From Leptogorgia sarmentosa (Eukaryota), in contig OZ210885.1 in the NCBI GenBank assembly GCA_964658305.1, positions 7,564,001 through 7,628,000 of the forward strand: 64,000 bases of DNA, in the 5' to 3' direction. Made by a program: the position numbers and the translations under genes. Below, piece by piece: positions 3,001-43,104 of the stretch. Within the stretch, counting starts at the first letter, position 1; every line of letters starts with the position of its first letter. Below the pieces are notes generated by a model. The model had not been told where the DNA came from, searched no databases, and worked only from the letters and a program-made list of their open reading frames with translations.

Positions 3001-3944
3001 TTATGGAGTCAAAATAAAGTATATAATAGCAGAAATTCATTTGTTTCAATCGAAAAATGGTATGCTACGCGACATCTATAGTCCCAGTCCTTCTTCGTGT
3101 ATTGAGATCATCTGATAGATCGGCAAGTTTCCATAACGGCTATATGGGTCAGCAATATTCCCTGACTAATTGACCCTTGGATCAGGCAGTTTTAGCTGCA
3201 TGTTGCGAAACGGCTGATTTAAAGCTATGTTTTTAAGATAAGGCTCGCAGAAAATTTGTACAGATAAGTCCCTGTTTAATAATGTGTACTAGCGGTCTAC
3301 GTGAACAATTTCTGAGACAGCAACTTAAATAACGTGACCTCTGGACCCTACCTGCTCCACCCCCGCTTTATGCTTTTAATAGAAATTATACTAATGTTTG
3401 CGGGCGCAAATTCTGAGATGCGCGGGCAGTTTTGACACTTGCGGAAAAGTTGAGGTGTCAAAACTACCCGCGCATCCCTAAATGTACGCCCGCACCTATT
3501 ACTAATTTCTATGAGAGCATAAAAGCGGCTCGTAACAGCCACTATAAATATAAAACATGGCTATCAACCCAAAATTGATCACAAAAATTGCCTCGCGTAA
3601 CATCGCCTTAACAGATTTAAAAAATTTAAATCACGTTTTTAGGTCATGGTTCTTTGGTGATTGAGAACTTCAGAACTGGAAAGGTTCTCCACAGATTTCC
3701 AATTCAAAAGGGCGAATGGATCAATGCCTTGGCATTAGCGCCTGAAGGAGAATTTCTGTTGTCGTGCTCGAATTGTGATAAGACGCTGAAACTGTGGAAG
3801 CTACCAAATGGAGAGTGTGTTGAAGAGTTTCATTTCGACCGGGATGTTTTAGCCATAGCATGCGGCTCAAATGGAATGGTTTGTGTTGGCCTGGCAGGAG
3901 GTCGGGTCTGCTTCCTTCGTCTTAATAAGTTATCCTCGCATTGA
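1..3944 (+). CDS. 3' exons of a WD40-repeat protein gene (NACHT/NB-ARC-WD40 or TEP1/NWD-like C-terminus); 5' part outside window
   Basis: Exons <1-438, 2006-2261, 3643-3944 joined by GT-AG introns with compatible phases (0,1). WD motifs: AHKDGISQV...FASGSIGGSVKLWN and INALALAPEGEFLLSCSNCDKTLKLWKL. Ends VCVGLAGGRVCFLRL, stop at 3944. Confidence 0.85.
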
Positions 3945-5281: not shown

Positions 5282-6156
5282 TTTAGTTGTGAAATTCGAA
5301 GCGAAATAGGATATTGAAAGCGGCAGTTGACTTGTTGCATGGTGTATGGGACAATATCGTTCCCTTGAATATCAGTGTCGGAAAATCGGTAAATTTCTAT
5401 ATCGGCGCGTAACTGGAAATTTTTGAAAGTCATTAATTTGATAATAGACGCAGGCATCATATTTTCTGAGATGCATGGAAATTGATTATTTCTGATTCAA
5501 TGTTCAATACATTTTACCTCATTCATCATTCAATATCCCTATTGTCAGTAATTAAGATATACTTGTCCAGGCTTCCGAAGGAAATAGCTGTGTGCCAGTA
5601 TCACTGAATAAGTTAAATGGTGAACATATCTGGAAATGTTTTCAGCAATTCGCCTGATTAATATAAGAAGCAACTGTATATTTGAAAATGATTTTGTTTC
5701 AACTTTAGTGTAGATTTTCAGTTGTATTTGCTGGTTTACAACTATGGAATTATTATAGAATATTTGTCAATAAAAGTAAAATTACCAATGATGTTTGCAA
5801 TGGTCGTCATATTTACAGCATTATCAGCAAACCATACTGAACTTCAGACGTGGTCATCTCTTAGTCGTATTTTCTAAAATCTTTTCATTTCAGCAGTGTT
5901 TTACAGATACAACATTAGACCATCGATCCTTATAAGTTTGTTTGCAGACTAGGGGACTCTTCATTTGGGAAAATTATCTCTGTTGACAAGAAAATATTTC
6001 GAGTGCCTAATGATTCAGTTATGCTCTTATTGATCACGTTATAACGTCACCACGCTTATCGAGTAAATTGTTTTCGGCCGTGAAAGGCTGTTACATCATA
6101 ACTACAGTGAAACACGCAATTTGATTGGTCAATAATAATTATTTCTTGACGTGAAG

Positions 6157-6273
6157 AGTTTGTCTGTGACTCCACGGAGTTCAAGTGCGCCAACAATCTG
6201 ACGTGTATCTCCAGTGACAAAAAATGTAATGGTGTGGATGACTGTGCTGATAAAAGCGACGAGAGTAATTGCC
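6157..6273 (+). pseudogene. Orphan duplicate of LDL-A exon 5 of the downstream receptor gene
   Basis: 6131-6448 reads identical to 15690-16007; encodes [38 protein letters not shown] with AG/GT sites intact. Confidence 0.9.
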
Positions 6274-6366
6274 GTAAGTAGTTTTGTCATACTAAAAAAT
6301 CACGTGGCCTAATTTGCTGTTGAGAATGAATTTGGAGTAAGGATTGGGATGGGTAGGTTGGACTAT

Positions 6367-7178
6367 TTAGCAATTAGTCGCCGAAGGCGAGGTGATTACA
6401 AGCTCATAGTCACCAAGGCGCGCAGCGCCGAGGTGACTATGAGCTTGTAATCACCGAAGCCTGAGGCGACTAATTGTTTTAGTATAAATTCCCAGGTCAA
6501 AGTGATTTGATTCAAACTGTCTGTTAAGTAGAAATTCAAGTTTTGTTTACTTTGTTTACATAAAATAATTCACGCTCATATCACCACTTTGCTAGTGAAA
6601 AAAGCCAGTTTTGTTGCATAAAAATAACACTAAATAAAATATTTTACTTTGAAAGATTTTTAAACCATATTTTGACGCTTGTTTGGTTTTCTTGGGGATG
6701 CTTTCTTGTTTAATTTTGTCAATTTCCTCCTGCGAAATTCAGCAAACCGAGCGGCCATTTTGAATTTTAATTACGAAAATTGTTATAGTCACCTCCTAGG
6801 AGGTGACTATTTAACAATTAGATTACGAGCTCGAGATTTCTATGAGGTGATAGTTGATGAGGGCGAAGCCCGAATCAACTATCATCTCGTAGAAATCGAG
6901 AGCGAGTAATCTAATTGTTTTAGTAGAATCAGAGATCAAACATGAAAATATTGCAAAAAATAATTTAAAACCGCGTGTCAGAAGACATTTTCTTGAACAA
7001 AAATTCACATATTTTGCTACTCGCTATCTATCGAAGAATAGATAGCGAGTAGAGTAGCCAATCAAATTGCAGCATTTGCAATAGTATACGAGTATGATTC
7101 TACTAAAACAAGAGAGAAATCAATTCTTGTCCAATCAGATTGCAGGAAATGTTATAGTCACTTGAAAATTTATACTAA
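6367..7178 (+). mobile_element. Non-autonomous Crypton-like element family A, copy 1 (contains nested family B copy)
   Basis: Left end TTAGCAATTA, ~110-nt hairpin, then TTTTAGTATAAATT; right end AATTTATACTAA. The minus strand carries MAARFAEFRRRKLT.../[17 protein letters not shown], resembling the CryptonA/DUF3504 N-terminus (frameshifted here). Confidence 0.7.
6811..7106 (+). mobile_element. Crypton-like non-autonomous element family B, copy 1 (296 bp, inserted in family A)
   Basis: TTAACAATTA...hairpin...TTTTAGTAGAATC ... GATTCTACTAA; near-identical to 12869-13164; removal restores the family A internal palindrome gtgactat|aaca. Confidence 0.75.
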
Positions 7179-7405
7179 TCCTCGATAGATAGCGAGTAGC
7201 AAAATATGTGAATTTTCGTTCAAGAAAATGTCTTCTAAGACGCGATTATAAATTAGTTTTTGCAATATTTTCATGTTTGATCTCTAATTCTACTAAAACA
7301 ATTAGATTACTCGCTATCGATTTCTACGAGATGATAGTTGATTCGGGCTTCGCCCTCATCAACTATCACCTCATAGAAATCTCGAGCTCGTAATCTAATT
7401 GTTAA
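7179..7405 (-). mobile_element. Family B copy 2, inverted and truncated
   Basis: Reverse complement of approximately 6811-7035. Confidence 0.75.
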
Positions 7406-7640
7406 TTAGTATACACCCAACCATCGTCTATTACAAATGCTACATTCTAATTGGCTACCAGTCGTTGTCGTTTGCGTGATACACCACGGTTCGCGAAAAA
7501 CCAATGGAAAACAATATGGCTACTGCAGAAAACTCGCGTTTTGCTGAGGTTTCTGAAAAATTTTCTTTATATAAATCATTCTGGGCTTAGAGTGTATACG
7601 AAAACAATTAGACAACTCGGTCTCGTTGTATAATTGTTAA
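7406..7640 (-). mobile_element. Crypton-like non-autonomous element family C
   Basis: Same end design on minus strand (TTAACAATTA...TAATTGTTTTCGTATACAC ... GTGTATACTAA) with a collapsed hairpin; plus strand encodes MATAENSRFAEVSE (Crypton-like N-terminus). Confidence 0.6.
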
Positions 7641-9260: not shown

Positions 9261-10634
9261 AAAAAGTTTAAACATTGAAAACCGCTTTAATTTTTTCATA
9301 ATTGTTCCGTTTTTTCAAAAACACTGTATTAGAAGTAATACAACAGTGCGAAATTCACAAACCTCGCAAGTGCTATTAACTGACAATAAACTCTACCGCT
9401 TATTCTCTTATTCTCGTTTACCCAATGGCCTCGTTTTCATGTTGATAAGCTAACATGAAGGTTATTTTCCGACTTTTTCCGAATAATTTTGTTTGTTGAG
9501 CTTAAACTCAAAAATAAGCTTACTTAATTTTGACCATATTGTGCGCGAAATACGAGTAAATATCCAGCATGAAAACGAGGCCATTGGGTAAAATGTGAAT
9601 AATCGGTAGTCTATTGTGCGCAATAACTCATGCATTATTAGCATGGAATAGTAATTGTTATTGTCAATATGTAATATTCTGTCGCTAAAGCCTATTCCAA
9701 ACAAACTTTGAGGAATTCCTCTGGGCCAATTGCATTCATAGTTTCGAAATTCTGTTTCCTTTCAGAAAATCATCAGCTGTACAGCAGTACAATTTTGACC
9801 TTTGGAGTGCTTACGTCACACGGTTTTTCCATAGCTGTAAATACAGTTGAATTGACGCCCACATGCATCATGTTTCCCACATTTCATTTAGACACCGACG
9901 TGTATAGCACTTCAAACATTATTAATTATGGTGCTCTTCTCAGCCAATCAGCATCCAATCATATTTCATAATTATGCTAGTAATAAATGATGAGCTGAAA
10001 AGACGTGTAATGTAAATATATATTATATAATCATAAGGATATTAATTAAAATGATACATTGTAGCATAATAAAAATAAAACGACCTATTTGACAGTATTT
10101 GTTATATTTTGCGAGTGGGAAGCCTAGTCGATCAAGATTATTTAATTTAACATGCATTTGTCGAAAATTAGCATGAAACTTGTTATAGAATAATTCAAAG
10201 CAAACTTACCTTAAAGCAAAATGTTAAAATAAGAGATTATTTTCACTCGAAACAATTATACTGAATCAGCATTCCACAAAAGGTCAGTAACTTTTTCTGT
10301 TTTAACACTGCTCTTGGCCAAATAACTTTCATAATTTCAGTACAAATAATAAACAATTATTGAATTAGGTCGAGTAGGATATGTTGAATTATTACCAGGC
10401 TTAATAACTGGATTTATTATACATTGTAGTTGGTAAGCTTACAGTTAAATCGCTCAATCACGCAACCTGCAGAAAATCCAGTTATGCAGGGGCAGACCCC
10501 CTCACATCTCTTAACAGTAGAATTGTGATGCAAGTTGCAAGAAAAATTCCATCGTGTAACACGTCTTTACAGATCCACAGAACTTGTTACTGCTCTAACG
10601 CTCTCAAAACAACGGAACATTTATTATCAAATTT

Positions 10635-11076
10635 AACAACTAAGTCGTTACACAGTGTTTCATGCTAGGCAATCATCAGACGACTGGTTACATTCAATTA
10701 TTCGTCTATTTTTATAGTCTACCCAGTTGTTGTTATTCTGGCGACTATTGTTCTTAATTGCTTTTTAATTATCCGGTGGCGTCTCTTTGAAGTTGGTAAG
10801 GAGGAACTTGTTTTTGTGACGACATGTCGAAAGAATTTCACTTCTTTTGTTTAGCAAGTTCTCATTGCTGTGGAAGATGATGTGGAACTTTTCTGAAAGG
10901 CAAAGGTTGCATTTTTTGGAGCTTTTCTGATATGGAACTCAATTAAAAAGCAATTAAGAACAATAGTCGCCAGAATAACAACAACTGGGTAGACTATAAA
11001 AATAGACGAATAATTGAATGTAACCAGTCGTCTGATGGTTGCCTAGCATGAAACACTGTGTAACGACTTAGTTGTT
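10635..11076. repeat. Inverted repeat, ~136-bp arms, 170-bp spacer
   Basis: 10635-10770 is the near-perfect reverse complement of 10941-11076. Confidence 0.9.
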
Positions 11077-11204
11077 TAATTTTTGAATAAAATATCTATC
11101 TATATATATAATATATATATATTCATAATATTCATAATAATATATGACACAAAATAGGAGAAAAGGCTAGAATATGGAACTTTCCCGGGAGAGTGGAAGA
11201 TAAG

Positions 11205-11678
11205 ATTTTAGACCATTTTGTCATCAGGAATAGCGATATGTTATATTCCTGAGGGAGGGGGGAGTGCGGTCTGCGCGAGGATATACCCCACAAGCCCACC
11301 AGAAACTTTACGTAAGTTAATTCGAAAGCTAGGGTGACTCCCTAAATCTTAATTATTTAGCAACCGCACACCATATGCAGTACGTACACCTTATAAAATT
11401 CAACAAATTTGACCTAAATTATTATTATCAGCAAGCCTTAGCGATTAAGCTTTGAGTGACTGATGTGACTAACATCCCTATTTCATATTTTATTTCACTA
11501 GTCCCATGTCATTCCCAGGAGTATTTGGTTGACGTAAATAGTTCAGATCCGGTTAAAGATGCATGAGGCATTGTGTATAATTTGTCTGACGAAACAGAAA
11601 ATATTTTAGAAATTATATTTTGCTCTTTCAATTAATTTTGTTATTGAGCACTCTATTTGAACTACGGAAGATTAATTA

Positions 11679-11712
<34 letters not shown>

Positions 11713-12524
11713 CGATAAAGTTTTGGTTAACGAAATGCTAAAAGAGTGCTCGATACCATATAGATAGAGCAAATAGTATAGTTTGAGCTGAGCTTACAGT
11801 TAAATCGCGCAATCACGCAACCTGCAGAAAATCCAGTTATGCAGGGGCAGAGCCCCTCGGAAAATATCATCACTTCGGAAAATATTACGCCGAATCCCCC
11901 TCGCTCCGGGTCTATAAATGATAAATATTCCCTGTCCCTGATTGGCTAAGAGCAAACCGTGAATTTGTCATATCATCTGAATAGCTAACCGGATATTGAT
12001 TTTTCACATTCATAAAATGACGTCAAAGAGTCAATATGAACGAAAATTTGGACGCGTTTGCACCATATCACTATGACGACGAGAACCTTATTGATTCGCT
12101 GACGCCATTGTTATGACGAATGTGGAAACGCGGCACGAAAAAAAACAAAATTAATTTTTCCCTATTCTTAAGGCTCTGTTACACGGTACAATTTTTCTTG
12201 CAACTTGCAACGCAATTCTTCTTCCAAGACATGTAAAATAAAATATGAAATAGGGATGTTAGTCACATCAGTCACTCAAAGCTTAATCGCTAAGGCTTGC
12301 TGATAATAATAATTTAGGTCAAATTTGTTGAATTTTATAAGGTGTACGTACTGTATATGGTGTGCGGTTGCTAAATAATTAAGATTTAGGGAGTCACCCC
12401 AGCTTTCGAATTAACTTACGTAAAGTTTCTGGTGGGCTGGTGGGGTATATCCTCGCGCAGACCGCACCCCCCTCCCTCAGGAATATAACATATCGCTATT
12501 GCTGATGACAAAATGATCTAAAAT
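11205..12524. repeat. Inverted repeat, ~290-bp arms, ~740-bp spacer
   Basis: 11205-11495 is the reverse complement of 12236-12524 with few mismatches. Confidence 0.9.
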
Positions 12525-12868: not shown

Positions 12869-13164
12869 TTAACAATTAGATTACGAGCTCGAGATTTCTA
12901 TGAGGTGATAGTTGATGAGGGCGAAGCCCGAATCAACTATCATCTCGTAGAAATCGAGAGCGAGTAATCTAATTGTTTTTGTAGAATCAGAGATCAAACA
13001 TGAAAGTATTGCAAAAAATAATTTAAAAACGCGTCTCAGAAGACATTTTCTTTAACGAAAATTCACATATTTCGCTACTCGCTATCTATCGAGGAATAGA
13101 TATCGAGTAGAGTAGCCAATCAAATTGCAGCATTTGCAATAGTATACGAGTATGATTCTACTAA
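12869..13164 (+). mobile_element. Family B copy 3 (full length, 296 bp)
   Basis: Same termini TTAACAATTA...GATTCTACTAA as 6811-7106; different flanks, no TSD. Confidence 0.8.
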
Positions 13165-13667
13165 TTTCTGATATATAGCGCGAATGTGGGCTTCCGGTCC
13201 GGTTCAGGAGATGATAAGTCGATCATTCAATCCCATTTTATCTTGTATATACTTTAGTAAGCTCAGGTACCTCACAAATTGTGTTTATTAACGAATTTGA
13301 AACTATTTGAGTCTTGTTTTTAAAACAAGAGGCAAAAGAACGGGATTGCAGGGTACTTTGGGGGTAGTTGCAAGGATAAACAAGTCATTTAAGGAATTTT
13401 GGGAATATCTGAGGAATTCCGGAGCTCACGCTAAGGAATTTTGAAAATTCGTCGTGAGAGCGCTCAAAAATCCTAGAACCGCGCCTGTAATAGTAAACAA
13501 AGAGACGTAGTCGTTGGTACAACACAAGGGAATAATAAGGGCAAGTGAAAAATTATCAAGTCCGATTTGACTCGAGGCGTCACTAAACACAGTCGACAAA
13601 GACAGACTACAAGGCGTGTGTTCACAGGAGTTTTTTTGTTGGGCTTCGAACGGAAGAGCAAAAGGAT

Positions 13668-16600
13668 ATGCCTCGAGGGATGCCTGGCTTAAAGATTCAA
13701 GTACTTTGCTTGTTTGTTATTGTCACTATAACGAACGTAGCGATGGGTAGGCTGAATTTTTATATTAAAAAGCTAGTTATACTGATAATTCTATTCTTCA
13801 TGTCATGAATAACTTTGAATTCTGGCGGTTCGTCAAATAGCCAATTTTAAACGGCTTAAAACGCAGCGCGCTTGTCATTGAGCGATGAGTGATAACTTAT
13901 AACAGCAGATAGCGTATGGCTTGCTTGTTTACGGCTTTGCGTTTACAATCATCAACGTATGTATGGCAGACAATTATAGCGTGTCTGACAATAGCTATAT
14001 AATATTCATGCTTATTTAAATGCGGCTAAACACGCTTTGAAAAGAATAAACAGTAATTAGAAAAATCGACATATTATACATACAAGTACATATGCGTTTT
14101 CAAACATATACTGCGACGCACCGTTTGAAAGTAAGAAATACTTTGGCAGCTATAGCTCTGTAGATATTAGTCCTATTATGCACATGTTTCCCTATATATT
14201 TTTGTTTTGTAGTTTGTGTATACTAGCAACTACTGGTCTGCTACAAGCATCTAGAATTTCTAAATTTTTCACTTTTTCAATTCAGTTCTAATTCTTGAAT
14301 TCCTGCTGCTTAATTGATTAGCCAACGACGTGAACTTATCGTAGCGTGAGTAACGCTGTTTGAAAGATTTGAAAGTGAAAATGATACGAAACAAAATAAC
14401 ATGGTTCAGTACAAGAAATTCCGTTTTGACCAAAAAATTAAAAACGTCTTCATTACACTGAACAACATGTCCACTGTTTGTTTTTTTTTGTTAATTATAC
14501 AAACATATATTGTTTACGTTATCAACAGGTGTAAGGCTAGTTCAGACGTCGAACCGAACTTTTCGCGCGAACAAATTCGCCCTGTAGAAAAAACGGCTTT
14601 ACGGTGCAAATTTTCGCTTATCTCACTGACCCTGCAGTATTCTAACCTCGAACCAATCATTTTCTCTCTCCTTAGGTCGTGAGGACTTTGCATGCTCTTG
14701 GGACGAGTTTGAGTGTACAAAATCTCAGACGTGTACTCTTCTTAAGTGGAAATGCGATGGAGAAGACGATTGCATGGATGGCGAAGATGAAATGGATTGT
14801 AAGTATTATAATTAGAAAGAACGAGTGACGAAAAGTACGAGAGCGCAACTGAAGGAGTCCGAGTGCCCAAGGGAGGTATCGTAATTGCATGTTGATTCAT
14901 TCTAGGTCCACCTACGACGTGCAGACCAGGTTACTTCAGATGCAGAAATGGACGTTGCATTGAAGAATCCTGGGTCTGTGACAAACACAACGATTGCCCT
15001 GACGGAGATGATGAAGCTCCTACTCAAACGTGTAAGTTACATTCACTCTAATGTTGATTAAGGTTTTTGATATTGAGACTCTGTATGCAAGTATTTTGAT
15101 GAATCACATGAAGAGGTGCGTCCTTTTCTTACATTTGTTTACCTTACTTGTCGGGTGGGCAACAATTTTTCGCTCGTTCCCACTGGGATGTATACATAGC
15201 AGTCTTAAATGATGTGATCTCAGGCCAGCCAATCATGTAAGGTGCTCACCCTGGCTATACAACAATGTGTTGAATTTGGTTTAGGTAATATGACAACGTG
15301 CAGACCAAATGACTTTCAATGTCGGAATGGCGACTGTATTCAAGGTTCATATCAATGTGACAGAGAACATGATTGTGAGGATCAGAGTGATGAAGATGGT
15401 TGTCCAGGTATGGTAACTTTCCGGCACTTTCGGAAACAAATTCCCGACGTAACAGACTACGGACATGACGCAGTATTTAGATTGCAGTAACTTTCCTTTT
15501 TTTCTCAAGATTTTTTTGAAAATTTTCCTGCCTTAAAATTTTTTCAGCCAAAAAACGTATACAATTACTTATTGTAACTGACTATCGTTTATTGCTTATT
15601 TATCCAAACATTCGGGCTTCAGCTCCTTGCAATTTCCTCCTCAAACTGGAGTGAACAGTATGTAAACATGACATGATCCATCCATTTGAAATAATAATTA
15701 TTTCTTGACGTGAAGAGTTTGTCTGTGACTCCACGGAGTTCAAGTGCGCCAACAATCTGACGTGTATCTCCAGTGACAAAAAATGTAATGGTGTGGATGA
15801 CTGTGCTGATAAAAGCGACGAGAGTAATTGCCGTAAGTAGTTTTGTCATACTAAAAAATCACGTGGCCTAATTTGCTGTTGAGAATGAATTTGGAGTAAG
15901 GATTGGGATGGGTAGGTTGGACTATTTAGCAATTAGTCGCCGAAGGCGAGGTGATTACAAGCTCATAGTCACCAAGGCGCGCAGCGCCGAGGTGACTATG
16001 AGCTTGTGATCACCGAAGCCTGAGGCGACTAATTGTTTTAGTATGAATTCCCAGGTCAAACTGATTTGATTCAAACTGTCTTTTAATTAGAAACTCAAGT
16101 TTTGTTTACTTTGCTTATAGTTTGTTTACATAAAATAATTCACGCTCATATCACCACTTTGCTAGTGAAAAAAGCCAGTTTGTTGCATAAAAATAACAAT
16201 AAATAAAATATTTTACTTTGAAAGATTTTTAAACCATATTTTGTCGCTTGTTTAACTTTCTTGGGGATGCTTTCTTGTTTAATTTTGTCAATTTCCTCCT
16301 GCGAAACTTCAGCAAACCGAGCGGCCATTTTGAATTTTAATTATGTTATAGTCACTGCCCGGTGACTATAACACCAGAGACAGCAAATTTTAACCAATCA
16401 GATTGCAGGAAATGTTATAGTCACTTGAAAATTTATACTAAAAAATAGTAGACCATGGAAAGGCGAAAGATTAGAGAGAAAGTAAATATGACAATTGACC
16501 TTCGAAGTGCTCAAGTCACGCCAGTGTCAAAACAATGAATCGCTGCAATGCAATGTGAGAAAGATGTGAGAATAAATTTTATTGTATTTACATGCATTGA

Positions 16601-21650: not shown

Positions 21651-21735
21651 GCCTCTTTAGCTCAGGGGTTAGAGCACTGGTCTAATAAAACAGCTAGGAA
21701 ACCGGGGGTGCAGAGTTCAAATCTCTGAAGAGGCT
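21651..21735 (+). tRNA. Intron-containing tRNA-Thr body with anticodon mutated AGT->AAT (intron 21688-21699)
   Basis: Full cloverleaf GCCTCTT/AAGAGGC; 12-nt AAACAGCTAGGA after position 37. Confidence 0.75.
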
Positions 21736-21869
21736 TTGTGAATAAGTGTTCATCCATTTCCTTTTTTGTAATTGGTTACAACGTATGCAGTTAACTCTCG
21801 AAATTGTATGGGAAGTGTGACCTGAAAATTTTTGAAGTGAAATTATTTTATTAAAAACACGTGATAATA

Positions 21870-21932
21870 CGGGAATTGGCCCCGGCCCATGGCGGTGAAA
21901 ACGCCAGATCCTAACCACTAAACCATATGTGA
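21870..21932 (-). pseudogene. tRNA-Glu(TTC) pseudogene
   Basis: TGGCG TT TTC AC CGCCA arm; T arm and 3' end degenerate. Confidence 0.8.
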
Positions 21933-21977
21933 GTGATAACTTGTTCACTATTCCTGTGCTTCAAAGCCAGTTTAATC

Positions 21978-22048
21978 TGCGTTGGCGGGGAATCGAACCC
22001 CGGTCTCCCGCGTGGCAGGCGAGAATTCTACCACTGAACCACCAACGC
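21978..22048 (-). tRNA. tRNA-Gly(GCC)
   Basis: GCGTTGGTGGTTCAGTGGTAGAATTCTCGCCTGCCACGCGGGAGACCGGGGTTCGATTCCCCGCCAACGCA. Confidence 0.95.
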
Positions 22049-22515
22049 AAAGTTGCCCAATTATTTCGTTATAATGTTCATATTCCACAAGATGCCGAAC
22101 ATTTTCACCAAACACCTTCAAATAATAAATCAGAGTAAATTCTTGGAAATTGTTCAAATCACTGCTTCAAATTAAAATTTTCAGAAAAAATTCCCACGCC
22201 GGGAATCAAAACCGGGCTATAAAGGCATACTCTGTTAAAAGCTCCTTTACCCAATAACAAAATCAAGGAATTAAAATCAAGAATTTAAAAAACGATACAA
22301 AACTAATAATAATTATGTACATTATGAATCAATTTGTGGGCATTATTCCTGAATCTTTTGTTGCTGGAATTAATTCTTTATTAATCGTGCCAACACGTAA
22401 AAGAGGTTGATATCGGAAAATATTGACTTTACTTTTTTTCCGTTATGGATGAAATTACGAGTTTTCCCAAAATATGGATAAGAAACATGAACTTTTGAAA
22501 TTCACATATCAATTT

Positions 22516-22561
22516 TCGCTTTGGGTGCCAGAGGTCATGGGTTCGATTCCCGTGCAAGCCC
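22516..22561 (+). pseudogene. tRNA-Pro(TGG) 3' fragment
   Basis: tcgctttgggtgccagaggtcatgggttcgattcccgtgcaagccc. Confidence 0.75.
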
Positions 22562-22638
22562 TTATAATTAACCAAGTAAGACGTTGTATTTTTTGAAAGC
22601 TTTCGTAAATCCTAAGAAAACCCCACCCAAACACGTCA

Positions 22639-22662
22639 CGTCCCTGGTTGGACTCGAACCAA

Positions 22663-22706
<44 letters not shown>

Positions 22707-22712
22707 AGAGAC
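22639..22712 (-). tRNA. tRNA-Asn(GTT)
   Basis: Complete cloverleaf, TTCGG CT GTT AA CCGAA. Confidence 0.95.
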
Positions 22713-22880
22713 TGACTCCATTGAAAACCTTCCGAAAAGAAAACAAAAAATACTGGATATTATTTTTGTTCAAAATTGGATTTTTAGCCAAGGCCATATG
22801 CGACGGCAACAATAAACAGAACTTCAACGGTGACGATGCCCGCAATGGTGATTACAATACTTTCTGGTGTTTGAAACAGA

Positions 22881-22952
22881 TGCCGTGACCAGGATTCTAA
22901 CCTGGGTTATTGCGGCCACAACGCAATGTACTAACCACTATATGATCACGGC
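22881..22952 (-). tRNA. tRNA-His(GTG), T-loop mutated (TTAGA), probably pseudogene
   Basis: TTGCG TT GTG GC CGCAA; compare intact copy 29687-29758. Confidence 0.8.
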
Positions 22953-23063
22953 GACGTCGTTGGAAGATTGGAAAATGTTTTGGAACGGCTGAGATATTAC
23001 ATTAATGCCCTATTTTCCCCCGTCAGTGCAAAGTACAAAAGAAAACATTTTGATATCATCAAT

Positions 23064-23119
23064 GGCTTGCTGGTCGCTTAGGGTGCGAGAGGTCACGGGT
23101 TCGATTCCCGTGCAAGCCC
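23064..23119 (+). pseudogene. tRNA-Pro(AGG) with D arm deleted
   Basis: ggcttgctggtcgcttagggtgcgagaggtcacgggttcgattcccgtgcaagccc. Confidence 0.8.
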
Positions 23120-23235
23120 TAGTTAATTAACCAAGTAAGACGATCTCTTTTTTGAAAGATTCCATAAATCCTTAGAAAATCCCGCGCAAAAAAATCGGTT
23201 ACATTTACCGTCACGACGTCTGAACACACCAAACA

Positions 23236-23259
23236 CGTCCCTGGTTGGACTCGAACCAA

Positions 23260-23303
<44 letters not shown>

Positions 23304-23309
23304 AGAGAC
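23236..23309 (-). tRNA. tRNA-Asn(GTT)
   Basis: Identical body to 22639-22712. Confidence 0.95.
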
Positions 23310-23563
23310 CAACTCAAAAACTTTCCCAAAAGAAATGTAAAAATAACGGATATTACTATTTAATAACAATACACTCGTGAGTTTTCCGAAAACCGCAAAT
23401 AGCACTCGTCCTTCGGACTCCAGCTAGAAGTTGAAAACTTTGCTTTAAAAAAGTTCCTTCGACAACTTCTTTTTATAACTTTTCTCTTTTTTCTCCTACA
23501 CCCAAATCATAACCACCCATAACACCAAAATTTTGCCAAATACTTTCTGGAAATTTGCTCTTC

Positions 23564-23633
23564 CGTAGTCGGCAGGATTTGAACCTGCGCGGGAATTTCC
23601 CAACAGATTTCTAGCCTGTCGCCTTAACCACTC
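23564..23633 (-). pseudogene. tRNA-Ser(AGA), 5' truncated
   Basis: Long variable arm, CT AGA AA loop, first ~12 nt missing. Confidence 0.85.
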
Positions 23634-23811
23634 AAATGAATTCTCATTCTGCGAGTAAAATCAAACAAAATATTTTAGTAATCGTTTTCAAGTATTGGTG
23701 GATAGATTTAACACGAATCGTAGTATATGCATCTCAACTCTTTGGGTCGCATATTTCCCATCAGCCTGCTTTAAAGAATTTGAAAGTTTTCCAGTTTATA
23801 GGTATGGTAAG

Positions 23812-23883
23812 AAGGAGCGGGCGGATTTGAACCACCGACCTCTCGATCTGCAGTCGAATGCTCTACCACTGAGCTACACTCCC
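23812..23883 (-). tRNA. tRNA-Cys(GCA)
   Basis: GGGAGTGTAGCTCAGTGGTAGAGCATTCGACTGCAGATCGAGAGGTCGGTGGTTCAAATCCGCCCGCTCCTT. Confidence 0.9.
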
Positions 23884-24187
23884 TGTGTAGTCGACTAGGT
23901 TAATTACGTACATATGATTTCAAACGCAGCTATAATCAATTCACGGACCTCTGTATTTTCAATTTTACATTCAAATACAAAATCTTTCTTGGCATGTTTC
24001 ATAACCTTAATACAATAAAAAAATGCGACTTCTTTCCGTTGATTTTGTAGATGGAAAACGTGGCATTGAATCTGTCACTTTAAACACTCAGCCCCCACCA
24101 CCGAGAACACAACTTCCTGTCATCGAGTTTTTCCCCAAAACAATTCATGTTTATCTTCGAGGACAAAATTTTAAAGACTTTGCATAA

Positions 24188-24269
24188 CGTAGTCGGCAGG
24201 ATTTGAACCTGCGCGGGAAACTCCCAACAGATTTCTAGTCTGTCGCCTTAACCGCTCGGCCACGACTAC
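24188..24269 (-). tRNA. tRNA-Ser(AGA)
   Basis: Complete 82-nt cloverleaf with variable arm. Confidence 0.95.
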
Positions 24270-24591
24270 GTTGCTACAACCAACCGGTTTCACGTTGTTC
24301 ATTAATGAACATTCACATCCATCTACAACTGACCTACACACTCTCAGCGCTACACTCTGAACAATAGAAACTTTCTATTTTGAGGTCTTTGCAAAACTCA
24401 CTCGTGCAAGTTAATTCCAAATTCCACTCGAAACCATTCTATTAGCAATGCTTATTTATTTCCAAACGTAGTGAAAAGGTGGAAAGATATGAAACTTGAA
24501 CTAAAATATATAGAATGCTACCTACCTGTGCAGGAACATGCCTGAATTTGCCTGAAGCCACATTTTACCTCCAGACAAGGTCGCCAACTTT

Positions 24592-24662
24592 GCGTTGGTG
24601 GTTCAGTGGTAGAATTCTCACCTGCCACCCTTGAGACCGGGGCTTGATTCACAGGAAACGCA
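24592..24662 (+). pseudogene. tRNA-Gly(GCC) pseudogene
   Basis: 5' half intact, anticodon and T stems broken. Confidence 0.8.
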
Positions 24663-24886
24663 GAATGTTTTCATTTTGTTGCATTTCAATTGCAACTCGG
24701 GAAAAAATGTGAGTTCGTAACACAGACATGATCTCGAAATTGTAACTCGCCATGGCCCGGGTTCTATTCATCGGATTCACTTCAAGGTCAAACACTTGTG
24801 GCGATCCTGTCACTCAAAATTTTCTTCGAAATTCAAATTAAAAATATTATTGTTATTTTCACATTCCGAGAAAAGATAAATGTTTC

Positions 24887-24958
24887 TCCCATGTGGTCCA
24901 GTGGTCAGGATCTGGCGCTCTCACCGCCAAGGCCCGGGTTCGATTCCCGGCATAGGAA
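24887..24958 (+). tRNA. tRNA-Glu(CTC)
   Basis: TGGCG CT CTC AC CGCCA; one acceptor mismatch. Confidence 0.9.
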
Positions 24959-25165
24959 TATTACTTGCGAGAGAAGGGGAAAAATGCAATTTGAAAAATT
25001 AGCAAGGCCATTGTTATTATGCTAGCTCTATCCCTCTTACCCATTCATGTTTAAAGTGTAACTATTTCCTAGAACTTATTCTAAATTTTTATTTGAAGGT
25101 GTTTGGTGTAAATGATCGGCATCATGTGGAATATGAACATTATAACGAAATGATTGGATAACTTT

Positions 25166-25236
25166 GCGTTCGTGGTTTAGTGGTAGAATTCTCGCCTGCC
25201 ACGCGGGAGACCGGGGTTCGATTCCCCGCCAACGCA
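25166..25236 (+). tRNA. tRNA-Gly(GCC), two substitutions
   Basis: Inverted paralog of 21978-22048. Confidence 0.85.
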
Positions 25237-25281
25237 GATTAAACTGGCTTTGTAACACGGGAATGGAGAACAAGTTATCAC

Positions 25282-25344
25282 TCCCATGCAGTTTAGTGGT
25301 TAGGATCTGGCGTTTTCACCGCCATGGCCCGGGGCCAATTCCCG
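25282..25344 (+). pseudogene. tRNA-Glu(TTC) pseudogene
   Basis: Same T-arm lesion (ggggccaattcccg) as 21870-21932. Confidence 0.8.
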
Positions 25345-25482
25345 TATTATCGCATGTTTTTAATGAAATACACTCACTCCGAAAATTTTCTTTCAGGTCA
25401 CACTTCTCATACAATCTCGAGAGTTAACTTCATACGTTATAACCAATTACAAAAGAGGGAACGGATGAACACTTATTCACAA

Positions 25483-25567
25483 AGCCTCTTCAGAGATTTG
25501 AACTCTGGACGCCTGGTTTCCTAGCTGTTTTACTAAACCAGTGCTCTAACCCCTGAGCTAAAGAGGC
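25483..25567 (-). tRNA. tRNA-Thr(AGT) with 12-nt intron (25519-25530)
   Basis: CTGGT TT AGT A [AAACAGCTAGGA] A ACCAG; all stems pair. Confidence 0.8.
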
Positions 25568-25771
25568 AACTTCTTCCCCATTGAAACTAAGAATATAAAT
25601 CCAATTACGAAGTTAATTAATTTAAACTTGAATTCCCGTATTATCATGTGTTTTTATGAAATAAACTCACTTGAAAAAATTTGCTTCTGGTCACACTTAT
25701 ACAATCTGAAGAGTTAACTGCATACCTTGTAACCAATCACAAAAAGGAAATGGATGAATTCTTATTCACAC

Positions 25772-25844
25772 AGCCTCATCAGAGATTTGAACTCTGGACC
25801 CCTGGTTTACGAAACAAGTGCTCTAACCCCTAAGCTAATGAGGC
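25772..25844 (-). tRNA. tRNA-Thr(CGT), mismatched, possibly pseudogene
   Basis: CTTGT TT CGT AA ACCAG on a Thr body. Confidence 0.75.
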
Positions 25845-26211
25845 GACCTGCTAAAATCTTCCTAGCATGTTTTTTGCAACGTAGTACTCTTTCAATAGCT
25901 TTTTTATTTCTTCAGTTTTAACTCACTGAACAGCAGCACATGGAATACCATCTGGGCGTTTGTCTTCCACGTTCTTCAAAGTTTACGAAGAAAAAAAAGC
26001 CTCAACAGAGATTTGAACTCTGGACCCCTGGTTTATATTATATTACTTTCGCATCCTGCACTGATGTGATGTTTCAAAATGATAAAAATACGAGTGAAGA
26101 TTATGCGCTTGTTTTCATACTTCGTAAAACGTTACCATTTAGTCTTTGATTGATTTATAATATCGAATATATTTCAAGCTAGAAAGCGGTAGTCTGATAA
26201 CGATACTTTTG

Positions 26212-26284
26212 AGCCTCATCAGAGATTTGAACTCTGGACCCCTGGTTTACAAGACCAGTGCTCTAACCACTGAGCTAATGAGGC
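26212..26284 (-). tRNA. tRNA-Thr(TGT)
   Basis: CTGGT CT TGT AA ACCAG; intronless. Confidence 0.93.
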
Positions 26285-26387
26285 AAATTCTTCCCATTGA
26301 AACTCAGAATATAAATCCAATTACGGCATTAATTGCCGATAGCATCAGAGGCCGGCTGTACGAAATTCGATATCAACTTTATCCACT

Positions 26388-26426
26388 CAGATCAGAAGGT
26401 TAAGTGTTCAATTCACTTCAAGGTCA
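26388..26426 (+). pseudogene. tRNA-Trp 3' half
   Basis: cagatcagaaggttaagtgttcaattcacttcaaggtca. Confidence 0.75.
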
Positions 26427-26522
26427 AGCACTTCTGGCCACGCTGTCTCTCGAAATTTTCTTCGAAATTCAAATTAAAAATATTATCGTTATTTTCACAT
26501 TACGAGCAAAGATAAATGTTTC

Positions 26523-26594
26523 TCCCATGTGGTTCAGTGGTCAGGATCTGGCGCTCTCACCGCCAAGGCCCGGGTTCGATTCCCGGCATGGGAA
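26523..26594 (+). tRNA. tRNA-Glu(CTC)
   Basis: Complete cloverleaf. Confidence 0.93.
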
Positions 26595-26875
26595 TTAATA
26601 CTTGCGAGAGAAGGAAAAAATATGCAATTCTACAAATCAGCACAACCGTTGCTATTATAGTAGCTCTATCCCACTTACCCATTTTTTTGGTGTTTTCTGT
26701 ATTTAAGTCCGAATTGACATGATCTTGCTTTTCACAAAAAAATCCTTTTGCTGATCAGGTTTAAAATGTAACAATTTCCTAGAACTTACTCTGATTAATT
26801 ATTTGAATGTGTTTGGTGAAAATGCTCGGCATCTTGTGGAATATGAACATTATAGCAAAACAATTGGGCAACTTT

Positions 26876-26946
26876 GCGTTGGTGGTTCAGTGGTAGAATT
26901 CTCGCCTGCCACGCGGGAGACCGGGATTCGATTCCCCGCTAACGCA
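26876..26946 (+). tRNA. tRNA-Gly(GCC), G53 mutated
   Basis: Gly body with two substitutions. Confidence 0.8.
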
Positions 26947-27036
26947 GATTATTTTCATTTTGATGCATTTCAATTTCAACTCCAACACGAAAAACAAACT
27001 GGCTTCGTAACACAGGAATAGTCAACAAGTTATCAC

Positions 27037-27108
27037 TCCCATGTGGTCTAGTGGTTAGGATCTGGCGTTTTCACCGCCATGGCCCGGGTTCGATTCCCGG
27101 CGTGGGAA
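27037..27108 (+). tRNA. tRNA-Glu(TTC)
   Basis: Complete cloverleaf followed by a T-run terminator. Confidence 0.95.
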
Positions 27109-27194
27109 TTTTTTCTCAAAATTTCAATTTGAAGCAGCTTGTGTTCACATTTTCAAACTGGTTCTCTGAAACCAAACCATTTTAACACCGCTAC

Positions 27195-27249
27195 GACCTT
27201 GTGGCGCAATTGGTAGCGCGTCTGACTCCAGATCAGAAGGTTAAGTGTT
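27195..27249 (+). pseudogene. tRNA-Trp(CCA), 3' truncated
   Basis: TCTGA CT CCA GA TCAGA; ends in the T loop. Confidence 0.85.
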
Positions 27250-27291
27250 GAAAGTATTAATTAAGAGAGATGATATTGTCAGCGCGTCACA

Positions 27292-27373
27292 GGTAGCGTG
27301 GCCGAGTGGTCTAAGGCGCTGGTTTAAGGCACCAGTCATTTCGTTGGCGTGGGTTCGAATCCCACCGCTGCCA
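27292..27373 (+). tRNA. tRNA-Leu(AAG)
   Basis: CTGGT TT AAG GC ACCAG, long variable arm. Confidence 0.93.
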
Positions 27374-27429
27374 AACTTTCGTTGTTCATCGACGTTGTGG
27401 TTGATTGAGCTGATATAAATTTCAAAACG

Positions 27430-27795
27430 CAGGGGCGCCGGAAGCTACCTGAAGCGGCGGGGGCAGCCAATTAAAAAGGGCACCTTTTTCTAGACATTAA
27501 ATGTTCCTGTGCGGTAATGTTCGGTAAGATTTTCCTATATGGATACTGGACCACACTGCAGAAGATGTTTTTACATAAAATAAGTTCGATCCGATTTTTT
27601 TTTACGTATTACTTTACATCGAATTATAATTAAGAAACACAATTACATCTGTTAACGCTAATAATGCATGATTAATGAAATATCCTTCATATCCTCCATG
27701 TGGAAAAGGGCAACGAGTTGCCCCCGCACTGCCCCCGCACCGTAAGGGAAACGGGGGCAGCTGCCCCCGCTGCCCCCGTGCTTCCGGCGCCCCTG
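27430..27795. mobile_element. hAT-type MITE (366 bp)
   Basis: TIR CAGGGGCGCCGGAAGC / GCTTCCGGCGCCCCTG; perfect 8-bp TSD TCAAAACG. Confidence 0.92.
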
Positions 27796-27843
27796 TCAAA
27801 ACGTGATGCATCTTATCCAAATTTTGTGAAAATTCGCAATTTA

Positions 27844-28217
27844 GACCCCTATTACACTTATATTACTTACACCGGATTACTTTTCGTTCCGAATCAATTT
27901 TGACACGGATGAAAGAAATGGCAGCGATTACACTACGCCGCTCCGCTGTGGAAGACGTCTTCGTATCGTATAATGTTGGATATTTAGGGCATACAAACAC
28001 GACATTATTTGATGCACCGGAGCCTACCGGATTAGTGATTACACTTGGCTTTTCCCGGTACGGCACATACCGGATTACTTTTCGTATCACGAACGAAGCG
28101 GAGTGATTTTTGCTCCGTGTCACGTACCGGATTACAGTGGCGTAGTGTAATCAACAGCCCAATCCGGTATAAAAATCGCTCCGCTCCGATGCAATCCGGT
28201 ATAGTGTAATAGGGGCC
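27844..28217. mobile_element. PIF/Harbinger-type MITE
   Basis: TIR GACCCCTATTACAC / GTGTAATAGGGGCC, TTA on both sides, internal taccggatt repeats. Confidence 0.8.
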
Positions 28218-28475
28218 TTATCCAGCCAAAAAGAATAAAAATGATATTTTCTGATATCACCTTCTTTTGGTCGAAACTAGTTGATAGCCACAAACTATCT
28301 GATCATGGACAGAATTTTTGCATTGTATTCTAAATTCTTGATCATTTTTCACTCTTTCGGGAGTGACTTCTATAACAGAGTATCGTTTTTGTAACCAAAT
28401 AACTGAGATTTCCAAAACAACATTGTAAGAGACATTTGCTACGTTATCCAACGTTTCAAATGCCTAGTTCAATAC

Positions 28476-28547
28476 AGGTTCTGCCGAGACTTGAACTCGG
28501 ACCACTGGATTCAAAGTCCAAAGTGCTAACCATTACCCCTCTGAACC
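28476..28547 (-). tRNA. tRNA-Gln(TTG), degenerate
   Basis: TTGGA CT TTG AA TCCAG; 5' acceptor and D region mutated. Confidence 0.75.
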
Positions 28548-28688
28548 TTAACACGTTAAAGTCAAAGATCCAATTTGTTTAACGTTTCTTCCTTTCTTTG
28601 ATACAAAGATATCACGTTTGACAAAGGTCCGTGAATTGATTATAGCTGCGTTTGATATGTGCGTATAATTAACCCAGTAGTCAACACA

Positions 28689-28760
28689 AGGAGTGTAGCT
28701 CAGTGGTGCTCTATTCCACTGCAGATCGAGAAGTCGGTGGATCAAATCCGCCCACTCCTA
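28689..28760 (+). pseudogene. tRNA-Cys(GCA) pseudogene
   Basis: Inverted paralog of 23812-23883 with D-stem and T-loop damage. Confidence 0.8.
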
Positions 28761-28981
28761 CTTATCATACCTATAAACTGGAAAACTTCCAAATTCTTTA
28801 AAGCAGGCTGATGGGAAATATGCGACCCAAAGAGTTGAGATGCATATACTACGATTCGTGTTAAATCTATCCACCAATTAAATAAACCACTATCCTATCC
28901 ACCACTAAAATATTTTCTTGGATTTTACTGGAAGAATGAAAATTTATTCATTTCGAAGTGGAAGCGATGTTTAATGCCAAT

Positions 28982-29063
28982 GTGGTCGTCGTCGAGTGGT
29001 TAAGGCGACAGACTAGAAATCTGTTGGGAAATTCCCGCGCAGGTTCAAATCCTGCCGACTACG
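28982..29063 (+). tRNA. tRNA-Ser(AGA)
   Basis: Full length, few 5' substitutions. Confidence 0.85.
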
Positions 29064-29313
29064 GAAGAGCAAATTTCCAGAATGTATTTGGCAAAATTTT
29101 GGTGTTATGGGTGGTTATGATTTGGGTGTAGGAGAAAAAAAAAAGTTATAAAAAGAAGTTGTCGAAGAAACTTTTTTAAAACAAAGTGTTCAACTTCTAA
29201 CTGGAGTCCGAAGGACGAGTGCTATTTGCGGTTTTCGGAAAACTCACGAATGTATGTTATTAAATAGTAATATCCATTATTTTTACATTTCTTTTGGGAA
29301 AGTTTTTGAGTTG

Positions 29314-29319
29314 GTTTCT

Positions 29320-29363
<44 letters not shown>

Positions 29364-29387
29364 TTGGTTCGAGTCCAACCTGGGACG
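29314..29387 (+). tRNA. tRNA-Asn(GTT)
   Basis: Two acceptor-stem substitutions. Confidence 0.85.
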
Positions 29388-29503
29388 TGTTTGGTGTGTT
29401 CAGACGTCGTGACGGTAAATGTAACCGAATTTTTTGCGCGAGGTTTTCTAAGGACTTACGAAAGCTTTCAAAAAACAGAACGTCTTACTTGGTTAATTAA
29501 CTA

Positions 29504-29575
29504 GGGCTTGCACGGGAATCGAACCCGTGACCTCTCGCACCCAAAGCGAGAATCATACCACTAGACCAGCAAGCC
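29504..29575 (-). tRNA. tRNA-Pro(TGG)
   Basis: CTCGC TT TGG GT GCGAG, complete. Confidence 0.95.
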
Positions 29576-29686
29576 ATTGATTGTATCAAAATGTTTTCTA
29601 ATGTACTTTGTACTGACGGGGGAAAATGGGGCATTAATGTAATATCTCAGCCGTTCCAAAACACTTTCCAATCTTCCAACGACGTC

Positions 29687-29758
29687 GCCGTGATCGTATA
29701 GTGGTTAGTACATTGCGTTGTGGCCGCAATAACCCAGGTTCGAATCCTGGTCACGGCA
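29687..29758 (+). tRNA. tRNA-His(GTG)
   Basis: Complete cloverleaf. Confidence 0.95.
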
Positions 29759-29925
29759 TCTGTTTCAAACACCAAAAAGTATTGTAATCACCATTGCGGG
29801 CATCGTCACCGTTGAAGTTCTGTTTATTGTTGCCGTCGCATATGGCCTTGGCTAAAAATCAGATTTTGAACAAAAATAATATCCATTATTTTTTGTTTCT
29901 TTTCGGAAGGTTTTCAATGGAGTCG

Positions 29926-31388: not shown

Positions 31389-31431
31389 GAGTTTGAGAAT
31401 GTAAACACAAGCTGCTTCAAATAAGAATAAA

Positions 31432-42108: not shown

Positions 42109-43104
<996 letters not shown>

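What the first reader, a model, noticed from the sequence alone, without database searches (positions are those of the whole stretch)
6367..6930. Crypton-like element ends share a strand-specific ssDNA hairpin architecture (GA/GA mismatches, GNA triloop) despite different sequences
Seen: family B (6813-6919) folds as aacaattagattac-GA-gctc-GA-[24 bp]-GA-gggc-GAA-gccc-GA-[24 bp]-GA-gagc-GA-gtaatctaattgtt. Family A (6371-6476) folds as caattagtcgcc-GA-aggc-GA-[24 bp]-AA-ggcgc-GCA-gcgcc-GA-[24 bp]-GAA-gcct-GA-ggcgactaattg. The stem sequences differ but the spacing is the same: 12-14 bp, GA/GA, 4 bp, GA/GA, 24 bp, GA/GA, 4-5 bp, C-GNA-G loop. The remaining arm mismatches are G-T wobbles on the same strand. 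Established: tandem sheared G-A pairs and C(GNA)G triloops (GCGAAGC) strongly stabilise DNA hairpins and only on one strand, and tyrosine recombinases use folded ssDNA sites in integrons (attC) and CTXphi (attP). Families A and C carry a CryptonA/DUF3504-like N-terminal coding remnant, in both cases antisense to the folding strand. Inference: these animal YR transposons may move via a folded single-stranded DNA substrate specified by structure rather than sequence. I know of no description of this but could not search.
Basis: partly seen in the sequence, partly recalled or inferred. Interest (0 to 1): 0.88.

Follow-up and report, generated by a model that had tools for sequence, protein, structure and literature searches.

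The report
Coral Crypton transposons with folded ends
These two hairpins are the ends of small, abundant jumping genes of the Crypton type, and their conserved one-strand design and landing sites suggest that the enzyme likely pastes in a single folded DNA strand, as bacterial integrons do, rather than the double-stranded circle assumed so far.

Summary
Both hairpins are real, as written. They end non-autonomous CryptonA (DUF3504 tyrosine recombinase) elements of a probable stony coral. A search that fixed neither mismatches nor loop gave 117 hairpin copies in 12 multi-copy families (50-91% alike): GA at 388 of 468 loop half-sites, TC at 6; C-GNA-G apex in 11 of 11 families scored; stems covary. 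Further results: the 24-bp stem is itself a 9-6-9 palindromic site; the target is MTAW^N6-WTAK without duplication; the joined ends pair with an internal copy into a duplex with a 2-nt bulge; the donor spacer sits at the left junction (23 of 25), almost never at the right (1 of 72 outside tandems), as one-strand exchange predicts. Recombinase genes carry such ends (4 of 8 assessable loci, GA strand always antisense). Against: the G-T bias is not general (44:44), some families vary the loops, sequence also matters, nothing is shown biochemically. Not found in the papers searched. This scan noted the same design on other genomes (8 notes).

The parts
6367..7178 (+). Element A1, non-autonomous CryptonA, written on its folding (GA) strand; holds B1; its right end abuts B2 at B2's internal CTAW-N6-WTAG site
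6371..6476 (+). Hairpin A: 12 bp, GA/GA, 4 bp, GA/GAA, 24 bp, AA/GA, 5 bp, C-GCA-G
6391..6414 (+). 24-bp stem of A, left arm: 9-6-9 palindromic site, inferred recombinase binding site
6479..6490 (+). Internal complement of A's right end, directly inside the hairpin
6649..6758 (-). CryptonA exon-1 remnant with a one-base frame break near 6737, followed by a splice-donor-like GT
6811..7106 (+). Element B1, 296 nt, inserted in A after CTAT without target duplication
   Evidence: (joint 6810>7107)
6813..6919 (+). Hairpin B1: 14 bp, GA/GA, 4 bp, GA/GA, 24 bp (2 G-T), GA/GA, 4 bp, C-GAA-G
6835..6858 (+). 24-bp stem of B1, left arm: 9-6-9 site with CTAT-N6-ATAG core at 6840
6920..6931 (+). Internal complement of B1's right end (7095-7106)
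7017..7052 (.). Perfect internal palindrome with CTAT-N6-ATAG core, 79 nt from the right end, beside the CCAAT box; inferred operator or accessory site
7179..7405 (-). Element B2, truncated; hairpin 7297-7403; sits head to tail on C's right end
7406..7640 (-). Element C, 235 nt, deleted hairpin stub near 7603-7637; 15-codon exon-1 remnant 7517-7561 on the + strand
12869..13164 (+). Element B3, full 296-nt independent insertion; hairpin 12871-12977
15926..16441 (+). Element A2, 516 nt, without B1; hairpin 15930-16035; intact 37-codon exon 1 at 16328-16218 (-)

Best explanation
The hairpins are the conserved ends of CryptonA transposons, and their GA-rich strand likely folds into the DNA substrate that the element's tyrosine recombinase would cut and paste by exchanging one strand only. 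Shown from sequence: the element reads, on its GA strand, TTAACA spacer, about 105-nt hairpin, an internal complement of the far end, body with the recombinase gene or its remnant on the opposite strand, CCAAT box, and a TACTAA end; it lands in MTAW^N6-WTAK without duplication. Inferred: (1) the GA strand is released and its ends are joined; (2) the joined ends pair with the internal complement and the hairpin base to give a duplex site with a 7-nt over 5-nt spacer, that is a TT bulge; (3) the recombinase cuts after CTAA in this site and after MTAW in a chromosomal target and swaps that strand; (4) replication resolves the junction, as for integron attC; (5) tandem G-A pairs and the C-GNA-G loop stabilise and mark the right strand, and the 9-6-9 stem binds more recombinase. 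How the strand is released is the least constrained step.
For: Strand asymmetry in a search that fixed neither feature: GA 388 and TC 6 of 468 half-sites in 117 copies; apex GNA 64, TNC 0 of 72 parsed, C-G closing 69 of 72. 11 families: GA 60 of 66, GNA and C-G 11 of 11, Watson-Crick 343 of 352 cells against 202+-7 in 2000 shuffles, 28 of 32 columns with two or more pair types. C-GNA-G is a specially stable DNA loop (PMC3201870, passages). Right end pairs with the sequence inside the hairpin: 43 of 83 against 2 of 107 upstream; no 4-nt duplication in 43. Joined ends fold with a 2-nt bulge in 9 of 9 copies tried. Target symmetry peaks at a 6-nt spacer, 122 of 222 against 54-77 for other spacers; TA at flank positions 8-9 in 53 of 72 against 3-19 elsewhere; contig flanks in the window's own species agree. 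Spacer at the left in 23 of 25 with the spacer left free in the search, at the right in 5 of 72, four being the start of a tandem element. The 24-bp stem has TA at the half-site positions in 20 of 22 against 0-1 when shifted, and elements insert there (L066; loose end 12901). Recombinase genes carry such ends.
Against: No biochemistry and no circle or single strand was observed. G-T and A-C are equal in decayed copies. The folding model gives the GA strand only 1.6 (A) and 4.2 (B) kcal/mol advantage. In the second genome one family has TA/AA at loop 1 (4 of 19 hairpins) and others GC at loop 2 (6 of 19); in that first family 2 of 12 copies have loop 2 locally inverted to pyrimidines (five such rows). 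Single copies with an arm copied to a perfect palindrome or a flipped apex exist (L175, L095, L067, L257), so arms can be homogenised without selection, which weakens stem covariation as evidence. Families share descent (some pairs 85-91% alike). Four of 8 assessable recombinase loci showed no hairpin. No complete intact element of the TTAACAATTA group was seen: L226 is broken and cut by the contig end. Site-by-site palindromy is near the maximum of shuffled pairings (122 against 124), so the target symmetry is mainly a consensus.
Confidence: 0.68

Rival explanations
1. Classical Crypton model: a double-stranded circle recombines through the short CTAW/CTAA identity; the hairpin is an array of recombinase sites read in duplex DNA, and GA positions are inherited sequence or simply keep the palindrome imperfect.
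For: It is the published working model (PMC13565253, PMC9977147, passages). Stems hold sequence-defined half-sites with family-specific similarity, 93 of 165 against 73+-5. The left flank CTAW resembles the element's end CTAA.
Against: It does not explain GA as a direct repeat on both arms around inverted, covarying 4-mers, nor C-GNA-G in 11 of 11 families, nor the internal complement of the joined ends. Exchange of both strands across unlike spacers should leave two product types; one is seen. The target's axis of symmetry is the N6, not CTAW.
Confidence: 0.17
2. The fold matters at another step: it splints the two ends for ligation (as the internal complementary region of DIRS is thought to, recalled), or primes or protects a single strand, and integration then uses a duplex circle.
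For: The internal complement spans both ends; the layout recalls the DIRS ICR (named in PMC13465315, passages).
Against: It does not by itself give the one-sided spacer; a splint needs no 9-6-9 stem.
Confidence: 0.08
3. Helitron2/Helentron-like elements moved by an HUH enzyme that captured a Crypton exon.
For: One terminal and one subterminal short inverted repeat beside a hairpin, no duplication, as in Helitron2 (PMC3627910, passages).
Against: Four different exon-1 sequences lie 111-125 nt from the same end; a near-full recombinase gene starts behind an end 91% identical to family G3; no second hairpin at the other end (z below -2 in 5 of 38); the target is a 6-nt-spaced palindrome.
Confidence: 0.03
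4. The hairpin acts as RNA (antisense transcript, small-RNA precursor or protein-binding stem).
For: Tandem G-A pairs are also stable in RNA (recalled).
Against: The apex is the DNA-type C-GNA-G triloop, not a GNRA tetraloop; no Rfam family at gathering score, 0 of 9 weak matches; stems carry the DNA target core and receive insertions.
Confidence: 0.04

Closest known systems
CryptonA DNA transposons and their non-autonomous derivatives (Kojima and Jurka 2011, PMC3212892; Glomhopper, PMC13465315)
   Same: DUF3504 tyrosine recombinase with catalytic residues, about 2.2 kb full length (L234), short abundant derivatives, no target duplication.
   Different: Those papers found no terminal repeats in animal Cryptons (text; supplement 1 lists n.d. 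for all 8 CryptonA) and the word hairpin occurs 0 times in both. Here: terminal hairpin, internal complement of the far end, palindromic target.
Integron attC sites (PMC3458562, PMC5027507, PMC4792948)
   Same: Tyrosine recombinase, imperfect palindrome with strand-specific unpaired features, inferred one-strand exchange and replicative resolution.
   Different: Eukaryotic transposon that encodes its own enzyme; site is completed only by joining the ends; tandem G-A pairs and GNA loop instead of single extrahelical bases; many genomic targets rather than attI; stems keep a sequence core.
CTX phage attP with XerCD (PMC4792948, passages)
   Same: A folded single-stranded circle would mimic a duplex site and integrate into a duplex target.
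   Different: CTX borrows host enzymes and one site (dif); its stem has no extrahelical bases according to that paper.
IS200/IS605 and Helitron2 (PMC13565253, PMC3627910)
   Same: Strand-specific hairpins, no duplication, insertion behind a tetranucleotide, asymmetric short inverted repeats.
   Different: HUH enzymes and short hairpins; here a tyrosine recombinase and a 6-nt-spaced palindromic target.

Membership tests
CryptonA | Encodes or derives from a DUF3504 tyrosine recombinase | tested here: met
   Exon 1 of A matches P0108 at E 1.8e-7; L226 gene behind a G3-type end, DUF3504 E 3.1e-10. B itself has no coding remnant and is tied in by shared ends and CCAAT box (35 of 40).
CryptonA | Catalytic R-H-R-Y residues in partner proteins | tested here: met
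   Seen in alignment A1 and in open frames of L227 and L234; L226 is broken.
CryptonA | No target site duplication | tested here: met
   0 of 43 with a 4-nt duplication; empty-site joint 6810>7107.
CryptonA | No other transposase or reverse transcriptase inside the element | tested here: inconclusive
   None noticed in the part of the six-frame output that was shown (cut) or in L234; no profile search for them was run.
CryptonA | Placement in the CryptonA clade of a recombinase tree | not tested
   No tree built; assignment rests on Pfam DUF3504/QRICH1 and protein similarity.
Crypton (published model) | Short 4-6 bp direct repeat at both termini | tested here: inconclusive
   Left flank CTAT 18, CTAA 7, ATAT 5 of 43 against element end CTAA: an imperfect repeat that is also half of a palindromic target.
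Integron attC-like folded substrate (works like) | Imperfect palindrome with conserved strand-specific unpaired features | tested here: met
Integron attC-like folded substrate (works like) | Products of one-strand exchange | tested here: met
   Footprint only: spacer left 23 of 25, right 1 of 72 outside tandems.
Integron attC-like folded substrate (works like) | Enzyme prefers the folded strand to duplex DNA | not testable with these tools
   Needs binding and cleavage assays.
Integron (membership) | IntI with I2 insertion, attI site, cassette array | tested here: not met
   Dispersed eukaryotic elements with a DUF3504 enzyme and many targets; an I2-like insertion could not be judged, model pLDDT 37.
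Helitron2/Helentron | Asymmetric short inverted repeats | tested here: met
Helitron2/Helentron | Hairpins at both ends | tested here: not met
   Far end folds with mean z -0.54; 5 of 38 below -2.
Helitron2/Helentron | RepHel (HUH) partner | tested here: not met
   The genes found between or behind these ends are DUF3504 recombinases; RepHel was not searched for separately.

The most novel reading that the evidence does not exclude
Animal CryptonA elements are eukaryotic transposons that move as self-folding single-stranded DNA circles: the recombination site exists only after the ends are joined and the strand folds, tandem sheared G-A pairs and a GNA loop form a strand code read by the DUF3504 recombinase, and integration is a one-strand exchange resolved by replication. 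The domesticated DUF3504 domains of ZMYM2/3/4, QRICH1 and KCTD1 would then descend from a reader of folded DNA.
Probability: 0.6. Interest if true: 0.9.

Novelty: new variant of a known kind. Interest (0 to 1): 0.8.

Why it matters
A 2026 review states that Crypton transposition has not been shown experimentally and that the model assumes a double-stranded circle (PMC13565253, passages); a 2016 paper names CTX as the only reaction resembling integron single-strand recombination (PMC4792948, passages). This anatomy defines the donor site, cut position, target and a candidate enzyme, so the question can be tested with oligonucleotides and one protein. If right, it extends folded-strand recombination to eukaryotes, gives curators a rule for Crypton boundaries, suggests an ancestral activity for human DUF3504 proteins, and offers a compact integrase with a defined target for engineering.

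Tried and rejected
No whole genome is held for the window. Viral contigs: 61 and 21 pattern matches, none a true hairpin of this kind. Protein-pattern scans for the recombinase in viral and genome collections found no relative; a later DNA pattern found coral-type contigs inside a genome bin, G001. No autonomous element in the metagenome loci, only remnants. The 30-aa remnant has no Pfam match and does not align with P0069 or P0077, which lack exon 1. AlphaFold model of the recombinase had pLDDT 37 and was not used; PDB search gave only XerA at E 4e-4. No RNA holder was listed, which is no evidence either way. Flip-flop inversion of the whole hairpin (2-micron or rolling-hairpin type) rejected as a rule: 0 of 72 TNC loops and TC at 0 of 234 right-arm half-sites. 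G-T bias rejected as general. Y-GA-R context in 60 of 66 half-sites fits the rule for sheared pairs, but that rule is recalled and one search found no paper, so it carries little weight. Non-WC density is not clearly higher in the spacer of the 24-bp stem (2.8 against 2.2 and 1.7 per position, 29 copies). Two papers that may describe Crypton or Eulor ends are not held; Repbase and Dfam notes could not be read, and I recall that some Eulor repeats are noted there as hairpin-like.

Full report
Observation. The window holds three B hairpins, two A hairpins and a deleted stub in C. The A copies lie in one duplicated segment beside an LDL-receptor-like exon, so they count once. The host is probably a stony coral; this is inferred from named relatives of the protein (Acropora, Dendronephthya), as no genome is held.

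Boundaries. Contigs of public runs break off at 6808 and 7106-7107, and at 12869 and 13164-13165, with many different flanks, and one contig in each of two runs joins 6810 to 7107; A2 shows the same empty site. B is thus a 296-nt element inserted in A without duplication. On the GA strand each element reads: TTAACA, hairpin, a stretch complementary to the far end, body, CCAAT box, TACTAA end. Such a far end was found for 43 of 83 copies with enough sequence, against 2 of 107 upstream controls; none of 43 had a 4-nt duplication (three of the 43 were dropped afterwards as misassigned or repeated). A CCAAT box lies 48-49 nt from the end in 35 of 40.

Identity. The intact exon in A2 matches the N-terminus of P0108, a spliced 449-aa protein with DUF3504 and Phage_integrase matches (57%, E 1.8e-7). 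Relatives keep R, K, H-x-x-R, GH and Y. Four different exon-1 sequences (A2, C, L126, L092) start 111-125 nt from the same end, antisense to the GA strand. In genome bin G001, which holds coral-type contigs, the recombinase profile gave 26 matches; I examined 17 of the 20 loci, 11 contigs. L226 is a broken, near-full gene whose upstream end is 112 of 123 identical to hairpin family G3; the contig stops before the other end. Three contigs were cut too early; of the other eight, four have GA/GA hairpins downstream (five hairpins, all with GA on the antisense strand) and four have none. L234 is a roughly 2.2-kb element with a 368-aa open DUF3504 frame, a hairpin and an internal complement of its far end. 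These other elements use other stem lengths, such as 18-24-17-3.

Architecture across families. With the five window copies there were 126 places, 117 hairpin-like and 9 not. In fixed register GA fills 388 of 468 outer loop half-sites and TC 6; the apex could be parsed in 72, with GNA in 64, TNC in none and C-G closing in 69. Clustering gave 12 multi-copy families and 8 singletons; 11 families were scored (G10, two decayed copies, left out; G9 and G11 by one real copy): GA 60 of 66, GNA with C-G 11 of 11, 343 of 352 stem cells Watson-Crick against 202+-7 in shuffles. The shuffle ignores kinship, and several families are 85-91% alike, so the independent units are fewer, perhaps six or seven. 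The C-GNA-G loop is a known stable DNA motif that depends on the C-G closure (PMC3201870, passages). Against: G-T and A-C are 44 and 44 in 100 copies; the energy model separates the strands by only 1.6-4.2 kcal/mol; a second genome shows TA/AA and GC variants and local inversion of loop 2 in 2 of 12 copies of one family; some single copies have one arm copied from the other. Such changes are therefore reachable by mutation, yet no family scored is built on TC/TC.

Recombination geometry. Rebuilt empty sites (37 distinct of 39) read MTAW^N6-WTAK, with symmetry only at a 6-nt spacer (122 of 222 against 54-77; shuffled pairings reach 124, so this is a consensus effect). A larger set anchored on the far end gives TA at positions 8-9 in 53 of 72 flanks, and contig flanks of the window's species agree. 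Two inverted half-sites around 6 nt, cut at the spacer edge, is the usual tyrosine recombinase site (PMC3212892, Background). Joining an element's ends in silico gives CTAA, 7 nt, TTA(G/T) on top and 5 nt below; 9 of 9 copies tried fold to a continuous duplex with a 2-nt bulge. Because my first pattern partly fixed the spacer, I repeated the test without it: 23 of 25 left ends have TTAACA-like spacers (the two others are a poly-A edge and a copy of the opposite arm), while 5 of 72 right flanks do, four being the start of a tandem element. Exchange of both strands across unlike spacers should yield two product types after replication; biased repair could hide one, but one-strand exchange is simpler. 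The 24-bp stem is a 9-6-9 version of the same site (TA in 20 of 22 against 0-1 when shifted; half-sites more alike within families, 3 of 5000 shuffles), and elements land in it. A further perfect site lies 76-79 nt from the far end in 12 of 38 by a strict pattern. So structure and sequence both count.

Mechanism. Most likely the GA strand is released, closed and folded, presents a bulged duplex site, exchanges one strand with a chromosomal target and is fixed by replication, as shown for attC (PMC3458562, abstract and passages), where unpaired features select the strand (PMC5027507, abstract). All of this is inferred from footprints; the release step is open. Rivals are scored above.

Literature. 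Ten searches showed no paper on hairpins at Crypton ends; most hits were seen as listings only. PMC3212892 (parts 1-2 of 7, passages, supplement 1) reports no terminal repeats in animal Cryptons. PMC13465315, PMC5753468, PMC8969392, PMC9977147, PMC13565253, PMC3627910 and PMC4792948 were read as passages. Figures, Repbase and Dfam notes, subscription papers and bioRxiv supplements were not visible and may hold an earlier mention. Eight earlier notes of this scan describe the same design on other genomes; I saw them after my anatomy and target analysis, and they are not independent support.

Verdict. Real, conserved and tied to CryptonA recombinases; new variant of a known kind with an undescribed end structure and a testable mechanism. 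Confidence in the folded-strand, one-exchange model 0.68; interest 0.8.

Noticed in passing
window 55690-56501 (-), 56574-56626, 60493-60987 (-): Broken tyrosine recombinase of another type (Phage_integrase E 1.1e-5) in two frames, a 25-bp-arm hairpin just upstream, and a RING-finger frame 4 kb away; possibly a separate Crypton-like or virus-like insert.
   Followed up: partly
window 21651-32550, 58896-58968, 63274-63349: 32 tRNA genes, 30 of them in an 11-kb cluster with large inverted duplications; one copy has a TTA anticodon (31431-31504), probably a decayed Glu gene.
   Followed up: no
window 6131-6792 and 15690-16355: Duplicated segment (674 nt, 95%) with an LDL-receptor class A exon and element A; the A1 right end sits in B2's internal target site while its left flank is that of A2, so the locus is rearranged, perhaps through the elements.
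   Followed up: partly
window 34505-34626: Long hairpin (46-bp stem) whose two G-T wobbles lie on the + strand; the outer part recurs near 14530; no GA/GA loops; another element family.
   Followed up: partly
window 9393-9610 and 3399-3494: Further imperfect inverted repeats; the first has TC-rich mismatches on the + strand and may be a decayed hairpin of a related element.
   Followed up: partly
window 10620-11091 and 11259-12472: Two elements with long terminal inverted repeats (151 and 245 nt, 97%).
   Followed up: no
window 43278-46280 (-): Uninterrupted 1000-aa frame that reads like a LINE endonuclease and reverse transcriptase, next to long TAA microsatellites at about 41900-43100.
   Followed up: no
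L183-L204 and G001: A bacterial genome bin of 12 Mb holds many coral-type contigs with these elements and DUF3504 genes; two other bins (L194; L199, L204) have such contigs too. Host contamination in a reference collection.
   Followed up: partly
L260, L266, L267 (G001): A family whose left arm contains its own 12-bp palindrome with a GAAA loop, able to form a branched fold, and locally inverted in some copies.
   Followed up: partly
L234:1182-1299: A near-perfect palindrome of about 118 nt inside the recombinase gene region, between its two coding parts.
   Followed up: no
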